From the IMG/VR virus record IMGVR_UViG_3300008450_000021: 64,000 bases of DNA, one strand, 5' to 3'. This stretch comes from an uncultured virus (IMG/VR IMGVR_UViG_3300008450_000021) (Duplodnaviria > Heunggongvirae > Uroviricota > Caudoviricetes). The notes beneath the pieces were generated by a model. The model worked only from the letters and a program-made list of their open reading frames with translations. It did no database searches and had not been told where the DNA came from. The translations under genes were made by a program, and so were the position numbers. Shown piece by piece: positions 1-56,117 of this stretch (the first letter of the stretch is position 1; the number at the start of each line of letters is the position of its first letter).

Positions 1-13
1 AAAATTTATTTTG

Positions 14-98
14 TACTCGGGGCGGGACTTGAACCCGCACGTCTTTAAAGGACACAGGATTTTAAGTCCTGCGTGTCTACCAGTTCCACCACCCGAGC
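14..98 (-). tRNA. tRNA-Leu (anticodon UAA)
   Basis: Minus strand GCTCGGG...CCCGAGT-A acceptor, D-arm GGTGGAACTGGTAGACAC, anticodon arm CAGGA-CT-TAA-AA-TCCTG, long variable arm, T-arm GCGGGTTCAAGTCCCGC. CCA not encoded. Confidence 0.95.
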
Positions 99-106
99 AT
101 TATTTG

Positions 107-249
107 TAGTCAGGGTAGGACTTGCACCTACACCGCTTCCGTTTACCCGCACGACGAACGCTGAAACTCCTACGGTTTACTCTTTCGAGTGACGGCCAAG
201 CTCTCCGTCTTTAATGTCGTGTTTTGCCTTTCTATTCAGCCACCTGACT
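107..249 (-). ncRNA. tRNA-like RNA 1 (143 nt) with anticodon arm replaced by a multi-stem insert
   Basis: Acceptor AGTCAGG/CCTGACT-A, D-like arm, T-arm GTAGG-TGCAAGT-CCTAC. Insert closed by CACGAC/GTCGTG contains GACGG/CCGTC and ACTC-GAAA-GAGT hairpins. Confidence 0.75.
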
Positions 250-251
250 AT

Positions 252-368
252 ATGCCTTTTTGAACAACGTTGAGAAGGCTAACTCTATCTCCTATACGAT
301 GAGACGGTACTAGTGAGCATTGTTAAGAGGCTTTACCGGTATTACGATCCCCTCGCGAGCGGGGCTAT
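252..368 (-). ncRNA. putative structured RNA between the tRNA-like elements
   Basis: GC-richer spacer with CCCC/GGGG hairpin, long stem GCCTCTTAACAATG/CGTTGTTCAAAAAGGC and internal TCTC/GAGA hairpin. Confidence 0.4.
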
Positions 369-370
369 TG

Positions 371-513
371 TAGTCAGGACAGGACTTGAACCTGTATAAC
401 TCATAACAGTTGGTGTGAGTTATTTAATCCATTAGACGAGGTAATCAATCCACTAACCAACATTGATAATCCCTCTCTTCTAACTTCTGCGTCTACCATT
501 CCGCCACCTGACT
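371..513 (-). ncRNA. tRNA-like RNA 2 (143 nt), Leu-type D-arm, extended anticodon and variable arms
   Basis: Acceptor AGTCAGG/CCTGACT-A, D-arm GCGGAATGGTAGACGC, T-arm ACAGG-TTCAAGT-CCTGT. Long hairpins TTAGA..ATCAAT/ATTGAT..TCTAA and ATAACTCA/TGAGTTAT. Confidence 0.8.
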
Positions 514-518
514 ATTTT

Positions 519-744
519 TCCTATCCTGAGATTCCAGATAGTAGATTTTAACGGTTTAGTTTTCTTGAAAACAAACACATTAGTGTCTTACCACATAAAA
601 CTAAAAAGCAGCATTACTGGGAGGAAACATGCCAGTATCCTTTATCCCCACGAGGTCGGCGTTTTTATTAGTAAGGATGTCCGGCCCAATACCCTATCCA
701 TTGTTTATGTCTTGGATTAAAGACTGCTGAGTATCTCTTACTCA
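519..744 (-). ncRNA. putative structured ncRNA (~225 nt) downstream of tRNA-Glu
   Basis: No ORF; series of stems GAGTA/TACTC, AGCAG/TGCTGCT, TACTGG/CCAGTA, TTTAGTTTT/AAAACTAAA, CTATCTG/CAGGATAG. Confidence 0.45.
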
Positions 745-747
745 TTG

Positions 748-819
748 TACTCCCTACGAGAATCGAACTCGTCTTTCCAGGATGAAAACCTGATGTCCTA
801 ACCGATAGACGAAAGGAGC
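748..819 (-). tRNA. tRNA-Glu (anticodon UUC)
   Basis: GCTCCTT...AGGGAGT-A acceptor, anticodon arm TCAGG-TT-TTC-AT-CCTGG, T-arm ACGAGTTCGATTCTCGT; 72 nt. Confidence 0.95.
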
Positions 820-823
820 ATAC

Positions 824-1078
824 TTAATATATCATTAACAAGTGACCTTCTTTTGAAATGACTCTTGTTATACTATAGTCCTCAGACAATGTACGAGCAG
901 ATACTTCTACTGCTTGTTGTAATAAACCATGTGCAAACGGATTCATAGGATCTATTAGTTTTTGTATTATAGTTGGATTATTTTTACCTATTTTAATCAT
1001 ATAAGCCTCCATTAGTTTAACACATTCATCTATGTTTAAGGGATGACCTCTAAAATATTTTATAATTAGGTCCTTCAT
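824..1078 (-). CDS. hypothetical protein
   Basis: 84-aa ORF; start overlaps the stop of the upstream gene (TAATG). Confidence 0.7.
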   Translation of the reverse strand: MKDLIIKYFRGHPLNIDECVKLMEAYMIKIGKNNPTIIQKLIDPMNPFAHGLLQQAVEVSARTLSEDYSITRVISKEGHLLMIY

Positions 1079-1863
1079 TATAATAAATATTCCTTAAACT
1101 TATTTATATTAAAGGTAATATCTCCCATTTTGCCATCCAAACTATCTTCAAAAAATTCTTCAATTTTATTTGATGGTTTAGTTAGCAAACCGTATTCTTC
1201 ATATATGATTCCTAAAATACCATTTATAATAGGTGAAGATGTATCAACTGAATTGATGTAGTTAAGTCCTTTGTAATATATAAATTCTTGAGGTAAACTA
1301 GCACCTAATAAATGGATATAGTGATTATCTAAAATATAACCTTGTTTTTTAAATGAAGTAACCAATTCAATCCTACCCATCATTTGATTAACTAGTTTAT
1401 TTGGATGATGAAATAAACGTTGATACACCTCAGATGAATGATTAAATGCAAAATGTTTAAAACCTAAATCAATACATTTATCATATAAATTAATAAAATC
1501 TTCAACTGTTTTACCCTGTAGTACAACCATTAGTTTGGTTTCTGATGGTAATTGTGCTTTAAGAGTATTCATCCAATATTTAGCGTTTTTATAAGTGGCA
1601 CTAGTATTGTTCCAAGCATCAGGTGTAATAAAAATATCAGGTTTAATTAAGTTAATTTTTTCAATTAAGTCCTCATTTGTATGAGTCACACCTTCAAATA
1701 ACCCATTATCCATAATAATAAAACGTTCATCAAGTCTAGTCTGTAGAAAATAGTTTTTATACATTTCATACTTGTCTAACAGATGAGGTAAACAATAATC
1801 GTAATCATTAAAATGTTTACTGCGTTCTAGTAACGCTAAAGGGACTTCATGTGATACTTTCAT
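1078..1863 (-). CDS. TGT/DpdA-like guanine transglycosylase family TIM-barrel protein
   Basis: Motifs IMDNGLFE, ITPD, VVLQG, HLLG, SVDTSSP match tRNA-guanine transglycosylase/DpdA-type motif order. Likely start MKVSHE at 1863, after promoter and terminator. Confidence 0.65.
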   Translation of the reverse strand: MKVSHEVPLALLERSKHFNDYDYCLPHLLDKYEMYKNYFLQTRLDERFIIMDNGLFEGVTHTNEDLIEKINLIKPDIFITPDAWNNTSATYKNAKYWMNTLKAQLPSETKLMVVLQGKTVEDFINLYDKCIDLGFKHFAFNHSSEVYQRLFHHPNKLVNQMMGRIELVTSFKKQGYILDNHYIHLLGASLPQEFIYYKGLNYINSVDTSSPIINGILGIIYEEYGLLTKPSNKIEEFFEDSLDGKMGDITFNINKFKEYLL

Positions 1864-1875
1864 AACTTTATTTTT

Positions 1876-1909
1876 TATAAAGATAAAAAAGGCCTCGTAA
1901 GAGGCCAAA
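1876..1909 (-). promoter_or_regulatory. Bacteroidota-type promoter overlapping an intrinsic terminator
   Basis: Minus strand TTTG-N20-TATCTTTA; spacer is hairpin GGCCTC-TTAC-GAGGCC followed by a T run. Confidence 0.6.
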
Positions 1910-55433: not shown

Positions 55434-56117
55434 TTATATTTTAAATTTCCAAATAAATCCTCCTGCTGTTTTTTGTTTACCTTTACAGCAAGCCTGTATA
55501 TCTCCTTTTCCTATATATTTTTTAGCTTCAACAATTGAAGGCCATTCTTGAATAAAATCACCTTCTAAATTATATTGGTTAATTGGTTTACTATTAGCTA
55601 ATCTTACTCCTTTTATTATATTGTCTTTTTTTAATTTTATGTTATTTTTATGACTTTCAGATTTAAATTTTCCTATAGCTGATTTTCTCATTTTTTCTTT
55701 TGTTATCTCAGATGGAAACTTTCCTATCATTGATATTCTTTTTTTATTTTTAGTTTCATTAGAAACTATTTTTCCTTTATTAGATTTACTAATTTTATTT
55801 TTAGTTTCTTCTGATCGAGGTCCTGTTCCTCTGTCGTATAATTCACAAAACAATACTTGTTTCCAATCTCCATTTACTTGATCTAAATAATATTGTTTCC
55901 AATATATTTCTCTTTCATTTAATTGTTCTAAATTGCATTCTTCAATTATTTCAAATATGTGTTGTTCCCAACCATATTTTTGATATGAATTATATAGTTT
56001 AGAACCTATATGAGATTTACTTTTATGTTTATGTTGGTATTTTCTATTTTGTATATTAATAGATTGTCCTACATAAATTTTACCTTTAGGATTTGTTATT
56101 TTATATATTCCTGTCAT
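55434..56117 (-). CDS. GIY-YIG homing endonuclease with NUMOD3/NUMOD1 modules
   Basis: GIYKIT..KIYVGQS, repeated SEETK.K.S, C-terminal PINQY..G.FI.EW.SI..KTAGGFIW. Confidence 0.9.
   Translation of the reverse strand: MTGIYKITNPKGKIYVGQSINIQNRKYQHKHKSKSHIGSKLYNSYQKYGWEQHIFEIIEECNLEQLNEREIYWKQYYLDQVNGDWKQVLFCELYDRGTGPRSEETKNKISKSNKGKIVSNETKNKKRISMIGKFPSEITKEKMRKSAIGKFKSESHKNNIKLKKDNIIKGVRLANSKPINQYNLEGDFIQEWPSIVEAKKYIGKGDIQACCKGKQKTAGGFIWKFKI

What the first reader, a model, noticed from the sequence alone, without database searches (positions are those of the whole stretch)
107..513. Pair of 143-nt tRNA mimics with identical acceptor stems and unrelated replaced anticodon arms
Seen: 107..249 and 371..513 are both exactly 143 nt and lie between true tRNA-Glu and tRNA-Leu genes. 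They share acceptor AGTCAGG/CCTGACT with discriminator A and keep D- and T-arms. Their central regions are unrelated but each folds well (a multibranch in one; a long hairpin plus long variable arm in the other). Neither has a 7-nt anticodon loop at the canonical position. The inserts are too short for group I introns, and there is no G3:U70 pair as in tmRNA. Established: LeuRS relies on A73 and the elbow rather than the anticodon, and element 2 has a Leu-type D-arm. Inference: a class of processed, possibly aminoacylated, non-decoding RNAs acting as decoys for tRNA-targeting defences, aminoacyl donors or EF-Tu/ribosome ligands.
Basis: partly seen in the sequence, partly recalled or inferred. 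Interest (0 to 1): 0.8.

Follow-up and report, generated by a model that had tools for sequence, protein, structure and literature searches.

The report
Non-decoding leucine-tRNA-shaped phage RNA cassettes
The two 143-base elements are real tRNA-shaped genes that cannot read codons; they belong to a very large family in uncultured phages that keeps one fixed leucine-tRNA "upper half" and swaps the lower half freely, much like the still unexplained extra RNAs of phages T4 and T5.

Summary
On the minus strand, window 513..371 (E2) and 249..107 (E1) are 143-nt tRNA-like genes between tRNA-Glu and tRNA-Leu. They share the acceptor stem AGUCAGG/CCUGACU plus A73, and about 83 unrelated nt replace the anticodon arm.

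They are not a unique pair. The same phage, a T4-like myovirus, has six such elements. I collected 219 distinct ones, 61-191 nt long, from uncultured phages, and found none in cultured phages.

The scaffold is nearly invariant and keeps tRNA base pairs through compensating changes. The insert is hypervariable: 159 of 219 have no relative in the set.

E2 carries every bacterial leucine-identity feature I scored. It has a 95%-identical copy in an unrelated context with one compensated pair. It is held, unspliced, in RNA-library contigs of at least three studies. E1 has lost the D-loop/T-loop elbow contacts, has no divergent relative and folds no better than chance, so it may be decaying.

A close relative carries one different 81-nt element in place of E2+spacer+E1. 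Homology breaks exactly in the shared acceptor halves.

Best reading: stable, tRNA-processed carrier RNAs with swappable modules. The closest known are T5 RNA1 and T4 RNA C, whose function is unknown.

This scan met the same family earlier on other DNA.

The parts
371..513 (-). E2: 143-nt non-decoding tRNA-Leu-shaped RNA gene. Acceptor AGUCAGG/CCUGACU, A73, Leu-type D arm with G18G19, and T arm ACAGG-UUCAAGU-CCUGU. A 54-nt hairpin replaces the anticodon arm, followed by a 28-nt variable-arm hairpin.
   Evidence: Rfam tRNA 35.6 bits. Fold. All nine Leu-identity features. A 95%-identical copy lies in L194 in unrelated flanks, with one compensated pair. RNA-library contigs cover 374-596 and 375-636 without a difference.
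107..249 (-). E1: 143-nt aberrant member of the same family. Same acceptor and A73, but the D loop has no G18G19 and the T loop is UGCAAGU. The centre is a possible multibranch: CACGAC/GUCGUG enclosing two hairpins, one with a GAAA loop.
   Evidence: Rfam tRNA 29.9 bits. Features. Fold not better than shuffles. Found only as identical copies in L145, L146, L190, L191 and L201.
747..819 (-). tRNA-Glu(UUC), first gene of the RNA cluster
   Evidence: ARAGORN; Rfam 54 bits
13..98 (-). tRNA-Leu(UAA), last gene of the cluster, 8 nt after E1. It has its own acceptor stem, GCUCGGG.
   Evidence: ARAGORN; Rfam 58.6 bits
514..746 (-). 233-nt spacer between tRNA-Glu and E2, probably an RNA of its own or the leader of E2
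   Evidence: Conserved in L147, with a variable middle. RNA-library contigs cover 567-731 and 571-724 and run on into E2. Fold z-score only -0.57.
250..370 (-). 121-nt spacer between E2 and E1. It swaps together with the two elements.
   Evidence: Absent from L147 and L194. Weak sub-threshold abiF-motif match at 305-338: 26.3 bits against a gathering score of 37. Fold z-score -0.28.

Best explanation
E2 and E1 are members of a large family, seen so far only in uncultured phages, of tRNA-Leu-derived scaffold RNAs. The upper half of the tRNA is kept almost letter for letter: acceptor stem AGUCAGG/CCUGACU, A73, a Leu-type D arm and a canonical T arm. The anticodon and variable region is an exchangeable structured module of about 20 to 150 nt.

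Inferred mechanism:
1. The elements are transcribed with the phage's tRNAs as one precursor.
2. The host's tRNA-maturation enzymes cut them out: RNase P at the 5' end, then 3' trimming and CCA completion.
3. Their tRNA shape lets them persist as small stable RNAs that cannot decode.
4. The tRNA half is a processing and stability handle. In most members, E2 included, it is also a body that LeuRS could recognise.
5. The module is the part that differs in function from element to element. What the modules do is unknown.

At the DNA level, the invariant ends act as homology arms through which phages swap whole cassettes.

Shown here: family membership, non-decoding anatomy, selection on tRNA pairs, cassette exchange at the scaffold ends, and presence of unspliced E2 in RNA libraries. 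Inferred: the processing enzymes, stability, charging and any function of the module. E1 may be a decaying copy.
For: Family:
- Six elements with this acceptor stem lie in the 110-kb genome.
Pooled, these give 219 distinct elements.

Selection on RNA structure at positions my search patterns left free:
- T-stem pair 49:65 is a standard pair in 215 of 219 elements and 50:64 in 218 of 219, with G-C, U-A and A-U replacements.
- The Levitt pair 15:48 is A:U in 156 elements and G:C in 9. Of 13 elements with G15, 9 have C48.
- U55 is kept in 218 of 219.
- With position 73 left free, it is A in 140 of 153, and position 74 is C in 149 of 153.

Same flanking signals as real tRNAs of the same arrays:
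- T at -1 in at least 167 of 219 scaffolds, against 71 of 100 tRNAs.
- C at position 74 in at least 210 of 219 scaffolds, against 89 of 100 tRNAs.
- The arrays mix ordinary tRNAs, which have their own acceptor stems, with scaffold elements.

Non-decoding: ARAGORN of 161 elements, many with 2- or 4-base 'anticodons', and calls neither E1 nor E2.

Modules: 159 of 219 are singletons, and the largest cluster has 5 members.

Cassette exchange:
- In L147 (neighbouring protein 96% identical), one 81-nt element replaces E2+spacer+E1. Homology ends inside AGTCAGGTG and resumes at CCTGACTA.
- E2 recurs 95% identical in L194 with unrelated flanks.

RNA: contigs of metatranscriptome runs of different studies cover 374-596 (X1), 375-636 (X4) and 438-596 (X3) without a difference, and so hold the whole insert unspliced.

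Precedent:
- T5 RNA1 is 144 nt and annotated 'tRNA-like stable RNA with unknown functions'. It has a Leu-type D arm, 47 nt in place of the anticodon loop, and a long variable arm.
- T4 RNA C is 139 nt with a T arm and an acceptor-like stem. It was confirmed by Northern blot and its function is unknown (PMC9697503, passages read).
Against: - No mature ends, CCA addition or stability were measured. The RNA evidence is assembled contigs only, and the contigs run across E2's 5' end into the spacer, so they show a precursor or co-transcript rather than a processed RNA.
- The tool warns that DNA can be present in RNA libraries. I had no second call to lay a silent control stretch.
- The letter-perfect acceptor stem is not explained by RNase P, CCA-adding enzyme or E. 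coli-type LeuRS, none of which is known to need a specific stem sequence (my recall). Either an unknown sequence-specific partner exists, or the DNA-level role as homology arms maintains it.
- The inserts of E1 and E2 fold no better, or only slightly better, than shuffles. Comparative support for E2's module is one compensated pair from one relative. E1 has none.
- My family census is ascertained by patterns that fix the 3' half, so conservation of those letters is partly built in.
Confidence: 0.5

Rival explanations
1. Leucylated tRNA mimics. Host LeuRS charges the scaffold, and the Leu-RNA acts through LeuRS or EF-Tu binding, or as an aminoacyl donor for a non-ribosomal transferase. In this reading the insert is secondary.
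For: The conserved letters coincide with the E. coli LeuRS identity set, which comprises:
- A73, the A15:U48 pair, G18G19 and A20a;
- the G18:U55, G19:C56 and U54:A58 contacts.

LeuRS tolerates loss of the anticodon and variable arms (review PMC9976931, section 'Leucine identity'), and those are exactly the hypervariable parts here. E2 has all nine features I scored, like the phage's own tRNA-Leu. A73 is kept in 140 of 153 elements when left free.
Against: - Only 129 of 219 members keep the full set, and E1 lacks G18G19 and U55.
- The features could simply be inherited from a tRNA-Leu ancestor and kept for folding.
- I found no tRNA-dependent transferase, synthetase or CCA enzyme among 106 distinct ORFs of this genome scanned against Pfam. 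Pfam gave no match for most of them.
- This reading does not explain the hypervariable inserts or the invariant acceptor stem.
- Host LeuRS rules for the likely Bacteroidota hosts are unknown to me.
Confidence: 0.2
2. Pure punctuation. The elements serve only as RNase P/Z cutting marks that release the neighbouring spacer RNAs, like plant mitochondrial t-elements. In this reading the inserts are neutral filler.
For: - The spacers next to them are conserved and present in RNA libraries: 514-746 is conserved in L147 and covered by RNA contigs.
- The elements sit in arrays with 50-700-nt gaps.
- Earlier notes of this scan describe conserved structured RNAs between such elements (unchecked notes).
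Against: - A cutting mark needs only an acceptor stem and T arm. Yet a Leu-type D arm and the 15:48 pair are conserved.
- Inserts recur conserved across phages: E2 in L194, and module clusters of 3-5 members in which I saw paired changes by eye, not counted.
- E1 is followed after only 8 nt by tRNA-Leu, so it releases nothing there.
Confidence: 0.15
3. Selfish or decaying DNA. These are tRNA-Leu pseudogenes or recombination cassettes that spread through their conserved ends, with no RNA function. This reading is most plausible for E1.
For: - E1 has lost both elbow partners, has a T loop unique among the 219, folds like shuffles, and has no divergent relative.
- Exchange breakpoints lie in the conserved ends.
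- The locus is a hot spot that holds 0 to 19 tRNA genes in relatives.
Against: - Pairing is kept through compensating changes at free positions across 219 elements.
- The flanking signals match those of real tRNAs.
- E2 is present in RNA libraries.
- Pseudogenes would not keep U55 in 218 of 219 elements.
Confidence: 0.1
4. Intron-bearing tRNAs. The insert is removed by a protein splicing pathway, for example an endonuclease plus the phage RNA ligase, to give ordinary tRNAs.
For: - The phage encodes an RNA ligase (Pfam RNA_ligase, E 1.5e-17, G000 104157-105317).
- ARAGORN with introns allowed forces E2 into tRNA-Gly(acc) with a 67-nt intron.
Against: - No conserved anticodon-stem exon halves flank the inserts.
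- E1 is not called even with introns allowed.
- RNA-library contigs of three studies hold the insert unspliced. The only joints seen replace it with other letters, meaning other family members, not a cut-out form.
- The inserts are far shorter than group I introns, and no intron family matched.
- Ordinary tRNAs in the same arrays have no inserts.
Confidence: 0.03

Closest known systems
Phage T5 RNA1 (NC_005859 30501-30644, 144 nt) and RNA2 (125 nt), both annotated 'tRNA-like stable RNA with unknown functions'
   Same: Both lie inside the phage tRNA gene cluster. RNA1 matches the tRNA model end to end at 24 bits. It has a Leu-type D arm (GGAAUUGGUAGAC), a 47-nt insert where the anticodon loop belongs, a long variable arm and a normal T arm. 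That is the same plan and nearly the same length as E2. RNA2 has a T arm, CAGGUUCGAAUCCUG, like the scaffold's.
   Different: The acceptor stem differs (UGGAAUA..., with a U-U first pair and discriminator U). No sequence similarity was detectable by BLAST. T5 has single copies, not a multi-copy family with one fixed scaffold and swappable inserts. Function is unknown in both cases.
Phage T4 species 1 and 2 RNAs (rnaC 139 nt, rnaD 119 nt)
   Same: They are small stable RNAs at the end of the tRNA cluster of a T4-type phage. This window is also a T4-like myovirus: gp23, gp20, gp32, gp19 and gp25. rnaC has a T arm, CCGGGUUCGAAUCCCGG, and an acceptor-like closing stem. They are expressed late, were confirmed by Northern blot, and are 'of yet unknown functions' (PMC9697503, passages read).
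   Different: rnaC has no recognisable D arm, and the tRNA-family models match it only weakly (tRNA-Sec 17.5 bits). There is no shared sequence. No family with a fixed scaffold is known for it.
Engineered tRNA scaffolds for expressing recombinant RNA (recalled from the literature, not checked here)
   Same: A foreign structured RNA is placed where the anticodon arm was. The tRNA body gives processing and nuclease resistance. This is the mechanism I propose.
   Different: It is a laboratory design, not a natural system. Recalled, not tested.
Bacterial Y RNA YrlA (Rfam RF02553) and tmRNA
   Same: Both are non-decoding RNAs with a tRNA-like domain.
   Different: YrlA: there was no match in the window. 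By my recall, its ends lie in the Ro-binding stem, not the acceptor stem. tmRNA: the pair here is U3:A70, not G3:U70. The D arm is present and there is no tag frame. Neither ARAGORN nor Rfam called one.
Plant mitochondrial t-elements (PMC1920247; seen only as a search listing)
   Same: tRNA-like structures used as RNase P/Z cutting marks in transcripts.
   Different: t-elements are not known as a multi-copy scaffold with conserved identity nucleotides and swappable modules. Not examined here.

Membership tests
   Both E1 and E2. Family profile.
AGUCAGG-scaffold phage tRNA-like RNAs | Leu-type D arm (U8, A14, A15, G18G19) and the A15:U48 pair | tested here: inconclusive
   E2 meets all. E1 has U8, A14, A15 and U48 but no G18G19. 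In the family, G18G19 is in register in 149 of 219 elements.
AGUCAGG-scaffold phage tRNA-like RNAs | T arm with loop UUCRANU | tested here: inconclusive
   E2 has UUCAAGU (5 of 219 elements share it). E1 has UGCAAGU, the only such loop among 219.
AGUCAGG-scaffold phage tRNA-like RNAs | No 5-bp stem with a 7-nt loop at the anticodon position; a variable insert instead | tested here: met
tRNA (Rfam RF00005), as a decoding tRNA | Full cloverleaf including an anticodon arm with a 7-nt loop | tested here: not met
   The scores reach the gathering threshold (35.6 and 29.9 against 29), but only by skipping the 17 anticodon-arm positions and leaving 83 nt unaligned. ARAGORN makes no call.
tRNA-Leu substrates of bacterial LeuRS | A73, A15:U48, G18G19, A20a, U54:A58 and the D/T-loop contacts (PMC9976931) | tested here: inconclusive
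   By sequence, E2 has all of them and E1 lacks G18G19 and U55. Charging itself cannot be tested with these tools.
tmRNA | G3:U70, a tag reading frame, and no D stem | tested here: not met
   The pair is U3:A70. ARAGORN found no tmRNA. No Rfam match.
Group I intron in a tRNA gene | An intron of about 200 nt or more with a P1-P9 core in the anticodon loop | tested here: not met
   The insert is about 83 nt. No intron family matched at E up to 10.
Phage tRNA-like stable RNAs (T5 RNA1/RNA2, T4 RNA C), as a kind | Encoded in the phage tRNA cluster on the same strand, with a tRNA-like acceptor stem and T arm, 119-144 nt, non-decoding | tested here: met
   for the window. for T4 and T5.
Phage tRNA-like stable RNAs (T5 RNA1/RNA2, T4 RNA C), as a kind | Accumulates as a discrete stable RNA | tested here: inconclusive
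   E2 is held in RNA-library contigs of three to four studies. Contigs cannot show ends or amounts. There is nothing for E1.
Phage tRNA-like stable RNAs (T5 RNA1/RNA2, T4 RNA C), as homologues | Detectable sequence homology | tested here: not met
   BLAST of the 900-nt cluster and of element E5 against 50,697 phage records matched only ordinary tRNA genes.

The most novel reading that the evidence does not exclude
These phages run a natural 'tRNA display' system. One invariant leucine-tRNA chassis is recognised by a sequence-specific partner still to be found, possibly charged by LeuRS, and matured like a tRNA. It carries a rapidly exchanged library of structured RNA modules: aptamers, decoys or antitoxin-like RNAs aimed at host factors. 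Phages trade the modules by recombination through the chassis ends. The unexplained stable RNAs of T4 and T5 would be lone members of the same strategy.
Probability: 0.2. Interest if true: 0.85.

Novelty: new variant of a known kind. Interest (0 to 1): 0.62.

Why it matters
Phages T4 and T5 have been known for decades to make stable tRNA-like RNAs inside their tRNA clusters, and their function is still listed as unknown.

This family offers hundreds of natural variants with a fixed chassis and a variable module. That turns a question based on a few isolated examples into one comparative genomics and simple biochemistry can address:
- which chassis letters are needed for cutting, charging or binding a partner;
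- which modules co-occur with which hosts or defences.

It also matters for annotation. tRNA finders either miss these genes or give them false anticodons (39 of 161), which distorts phage tRNA counts and codon-usage arguments.

If the carrier idea holds, it is a natural precedent for the tRNA scaffolds used to express RNAs in the laboratory.

Tried and rejected
- Relatives of E1: a scan with its own T arm and acceptor gave only 2 identical contigs. A degenerate pattern from its centre gave 8 stretches in metagenome contigs, of which 1 (L201) was E1 and identical; the other 7 were chance hits. E1 therefore has no comparative data.
- Relatives of E2: a scan with its 5' end gave 3 loci, of which 2 were identical and 1 (L194) informative.
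- Cultured phages: BLAST of the 900-nt cluster matched 235 records, and all 40 rows listed lay on the tRNA-Leu gene. BLAST of element E5 matched 32 records, none over 34% of the query, mostly the T arm of Enterococcus phage tRNA-Gln.
- Antisense function: the longest matches between the inserts and either strand of the phage genome (11-12 nt) are no longer than for shuffled inserts.
- Known RNA families in the modules: in 20 array-bearing loci (52.5 kb) there were 119 matches at E up to 0.05. All were tRNA-model matches or matches outside the modules: freshwater-1, a tmRNA 3' piece, weak YrlA, and antisense artefacts on tRNAs.
- Partner protein: Pfam on 106 distinct ORFs of the genome found no tRNA-specific enzyme other than an RNA ligase.
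- RNA cover of E1, of spacer 250-370 and of the coding stretch 828-900: none in the four runs laid.
- Two RNA contigs of different studies stop at 374 and 375, 3-4 nt inside E2's 3' end. Without a DNA run for comparison this is at most a weak hint of an RNA end.
- I made alignment A1 to build a covariance model of the scaffold but did not build it, because the Rfam tRNA model and direct pattern counts already answered the questions.
- Five literature searches found no paper describing this family. The library lacks most subscription journals, including the original T4 and T5 RNA papers.
Full report
**What is in the window**

All RNA genes at the start of the window lie on the minus strand. The order is tRNA-Glu(UUC) 819..747, a 233-nt spacer, E2 513..371, a 121-nt spacer, E1 249..107, 8 nt, then tRNA-Leu(UAA) 98..13.

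Rfam's tRNA model matches both elements over its full length. E2 scores 35.6 bits and E1 29.9 bits, against a gathering score of 29. The match works only by leaving 83 nt unaligned where the 17 positions of the anticodon arm belong. ARAGORN does not call them as tRNAs or tmRNAs.

Both begin AGUCAGG, end CCUGACU-A, and are 143 nt long. Their 93-nt centres are unrelated: 316 of 500 shuffles align as well.

E2 folds as a class II tRNA with three unusual parts:
- a 54-nt hairpin in place of the anticodon arm;
- a 28-nt variable-arm hairpin;
- otherwise normal arms.

Its folding z-score is -2.13. E1's fold is not better than chance (z -1.25 for the whole element, +0.72 for the centre alone). Its D loop (AAUAGAAA) and T loop (UGCAAGU) have lost G19 and U55, which are partners in the tRNA elbow.

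**The pair is part of something much larger**

The window is the first 64 kb of a 110-kb IMG/VR virus record. The virus is a T4-like myovirus. It encodes gp23 capsid, gp20 portal, a T4-type terminase, gp32, a UvsX-like RecA, a sheath, gp19 and gp25.

A pattern search of the whole record found six elements with the same acceptor stem. Besides E1 and E2 they are:
- 118 nt, with an extra hairpin in the D loop, on the opposite strand;
- 83 nt;
- 107 nt;
- 69 nt, whose 'anticodon' stem is capped by a 4-nt loop.

Three of these four are also matched by the tRNA model.

A second pattern hit it at 134 loci. A scan of 185,579 species genomes gave only 30 stretches. Nearly all are MAG contigs, many labelled Bacteroidota, and none looks like a housekeeping tRNA with this stem.

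Pooled, I have 219 distinct elements, with lengths running continuously from 61 to 191 nt. I found none in 50,697 cultured-phage records.

**What is conserved and what is not**

The 5' 25 nt and the 3' 25 nt are almost constant. Part of that constancy is built into my search patterns, so I counted only the positions the patterns left free.

- T-stem pair 49:65 is a standard pair in 215 of 219 elements: A-U 173, G-U 32, G-C 10.
- T-stem pair 50:64 is a standard pair in 218 of 219: C-G 199, U-G 9, U-A 6, G-C 3, A-U 1.
- U55 is present in 218 of 219.
- U8 is present in 205, A14 in 187 and A15 in 182 of 219.
- The tertiary 15:48 pair is A:U in 156 and G:C in 9. When 15 is G, 48 is C in 9 of 13.
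- In a scan that left position 73 free, it is A in 140 of 153, and position 74 is C in 149 of 153.

These counts are the signature of selection on a tRNA-like three-dimensional fold, not of dead genes.

The centre, in contrast, is hypervariable. BLAST clustering leaves 159 of 219 elements as singletons, and the largest cluster has five members. Where modules do recur, I saw by eye what look like paired changes in their stems, but I did not count them.

In 20 array-bearing loci no module matched any Rfam family.

**Like tRNAs in context**

In other phages the elements sit in arrays together with ordinary tRNAs, which have their own diverse acceptor stems.

The flanking letters are the same for both kinds:

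| Signal | Scaffold elements | Ordinary tRNAs of the same loci |
|---|---|---|
| T at -1 | at least 167 of 219 | 71 of 100 |
| C at 74, then mostly A or T | at least 210 of 219 | 89 of 100 |

The window's own tRNA-Glu and tRNA-Leu also continue with ACA. This is why I infer that the elements use the same maturation route. That U at -1 suits bacterial RNase P is my recall.

**Leucine identity**

The review PMC9976931 (section 'Leucine identity', read) makes four points about E. coli LeuRS:
- It needs A73, the A15:U48 pair, G18G19 and A20a.
- It needs the G18:U55, G19:C56 and U54:A58 contacts.
- tRNA-Leu variants lacking both of those arms are still charged.

The conserved half of the scaffold is that set, and the variable half is what LeuRS ignores. 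E2 has all nine features I scored, exactly like the phage's genuine tRNA-Leu. E1 lacks G18G19 and U55.

Only 129 of 219 family members keep the whole set, however. Charging may therefore apply to E2 and to the majority, but it cannot be what defines the family. It remains an inference either way.

**Cassette behaviour**

Fifteen loci encode relatives of the neighbouring 276-aa protein.
- The two with 100% identity carry identical E2 and E1.
- L147 (96% identity) has tRNA-Glu, the same spacer, one different 81-nt element, and the same tRNA-Leu.

In the alignment, homology with the window stops inside AGTCAGGTG at the 5' end of E2. It resumes at CCTGACTA at the 3' end of E1.

Of the ten relatives I scanned (L147 and nine more distant ones), the downstream locus holds from no tRNA gene to 19.

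E2 itself recurs in a different contig (L194) between unrelated flanks. There are 7 differences in 143 nt:
- one compensated pair in the variable-arm hairpin (C-G to U-A);
- one A-U to G-U change;
- one break in a doubtful 2-bp helix;
- three changes at unpaired positions.

The elements are therefore discrete units that move, and the invariant ends are where exchange happens.

**RNA evidence**

One look-up listed 24 public runs that hold part of the stretch, 19 of them on record as RNA. I laid four runs from four different studies.

- Contigs of X1 (374-596), X4 (375-636) and X3 (438-596) match without a difference. X9 (451-600) has two differences.
- Further contigs cover the spacer up to 731.
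- All hold E2's insert unspliced.
- The only joints seen replace the insert with other letters, meaning other family members.

Contigs cannot show ends, strand or amount, and DNA can be present in such libraries, so this is support for transcription, not proof. Nothing covered E1.

**Known relatives in kind**

The T5 record annotates RNA1 (144 nt) and RNA2 (125 nt) as 'tRNA-like stable RNA with unknown functions' inside its tRNA cluster.

RNA1 aligns to the tRNA model at 24 bits. It has a Leu-type D arm, a 47-nt insert where the anticodon loop belongs, a long variable arm and a normal T arm. This is E2's plan. RNA2 has a T arm like the scaffold's.

T4 rnaC (139 nt) has a T arm and an acceptor-like stem. 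[quoted passage not shown]

None of these shares the AGUCAGG stem or detectable sequence similarity.

Five literature searches found no description of the present family. The library lacks most subscription journals, and I could not see the supplements of the virus structured-RNA survey (PMC10690425). Those supplements may list some of these elements among its 'tRNA-like' candidates.

**Verdict**

The best-supported reading is a phage family of non-decoding, tRNA-Leu-derived carrier RNAs. The carrier part is a fixed, tRNA-processed and probably often LeuRS-competent upper half. The rest is a swappable module of unknown function.

E2 is a well-formed member with modest comparative and RNA support. 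E1 is an aberrant, possibly decaying copy.

Two things stay unexplained: the letter-perfect acceptor stem and what the modules do.

This scan met the same family before on other DNA (notes e1-6107109 and e1-6122664, seen). My counts agree with their reading. They add the match to the leucine-identity set, the exchange breakpoints and the RNA-library evidence.

Noticed in passing
window 514-746 (-): The 233-nt spacer between tRNA-Glu and E2 is conserved in L147, with a variable middle. RNA-library contigs of several studies hold it (567-731, 571-724) and run on into E2. It may be a non-coding RNA of its own. Earlier notes of this scan describe conserved knotted RNAs wedged between such elements. 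The thermodynamic fold is unremarkable (z -0.57).
   Followed up: partly
window 305-338 (-), within spacer 250-370: Sub-threshold match to the abiF RNA motif: 26.3 bits against a gathering score of 37, E 0.028 in a 900-nt search. A GC hairpin (GCCCCGC...GAGGGG) at 341-377 weakly matches a CRISPR repeat model (19.1 bits against 39). Both are probably chance. The spacer is absent from L147 and L194.
   Followed up: no
G000:C1:90396-90513 (+), outside the window (L009 8397-8514): Family member E3 carries an extra GC hairpin inside its D loop. It lies on the strand opposite to all neighbouring ORFs, overlapping a 118-aa minus-strand ORF with no Pfam match. Two other family members (in L103 and L098) have similar D-loop hairpins.
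   Followed up: no
G000:C1:108203-108271 (-), outside the window (L010 8204-8272): The smallest member in this genome, E6, is 69 nt. It is a complete cloverleaf (tRNA model 56.8 bits) whose anticodon stem is closed by a 4-nt loop UUGG, so it is essentially the bare chassis.
   Followed up: partly
G000:C1:104157-105317 (-) and 105344-106426 (-), outside the window (L010 4158-5318, 5345-6427): An RNA ligase (Pfam RNA_ligase plus the PHA02142 OB fold) lies next to an ATP-dependent DNA ligase, about 3 kb from E6. It could be a tRNA-repair enzyme as in T4. No link to the elements was shown.
   Followed up: no
L036 3331-3393 (+), the same as L037 131-193: A near-threshold match to Rfam 'freshwater-1 RNA' (RF02979, 70.1 bits against a gathering score of 72) sits in a spacer of another phage's tRNA/scaffold array. 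This places that orphan motif in phage tRNA arrays.
   Followed up: no
window 824-1908 (-) and the syntenic loci L147-L158: The locus downstream of the 276-aa ORF is a hot spot. Of the ten relatives scanned, it holds no tRNA gene in six, one, two (plus one scaffold element), three or 19 in the others. The window has two tRNAs plus E1 and E2.
   Followed up: yes
window 55434-56117 (-); L008 9004-9465 (-): Two GIY-YIG homing-endonuclease-like genes: one GIY-YIG plus NUMOD1, and one SegE-like. T4 and T5 carry such nucleases in or beside their tRNA clusters. Here they are not adjacent to the elements.
   Followed up: no
several family members (for example in L170, L171, L063, L036, L113): Some inserts contain a second T-loop-like motif (GGUUCGANUCC on a short stem).
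   Followed up: no
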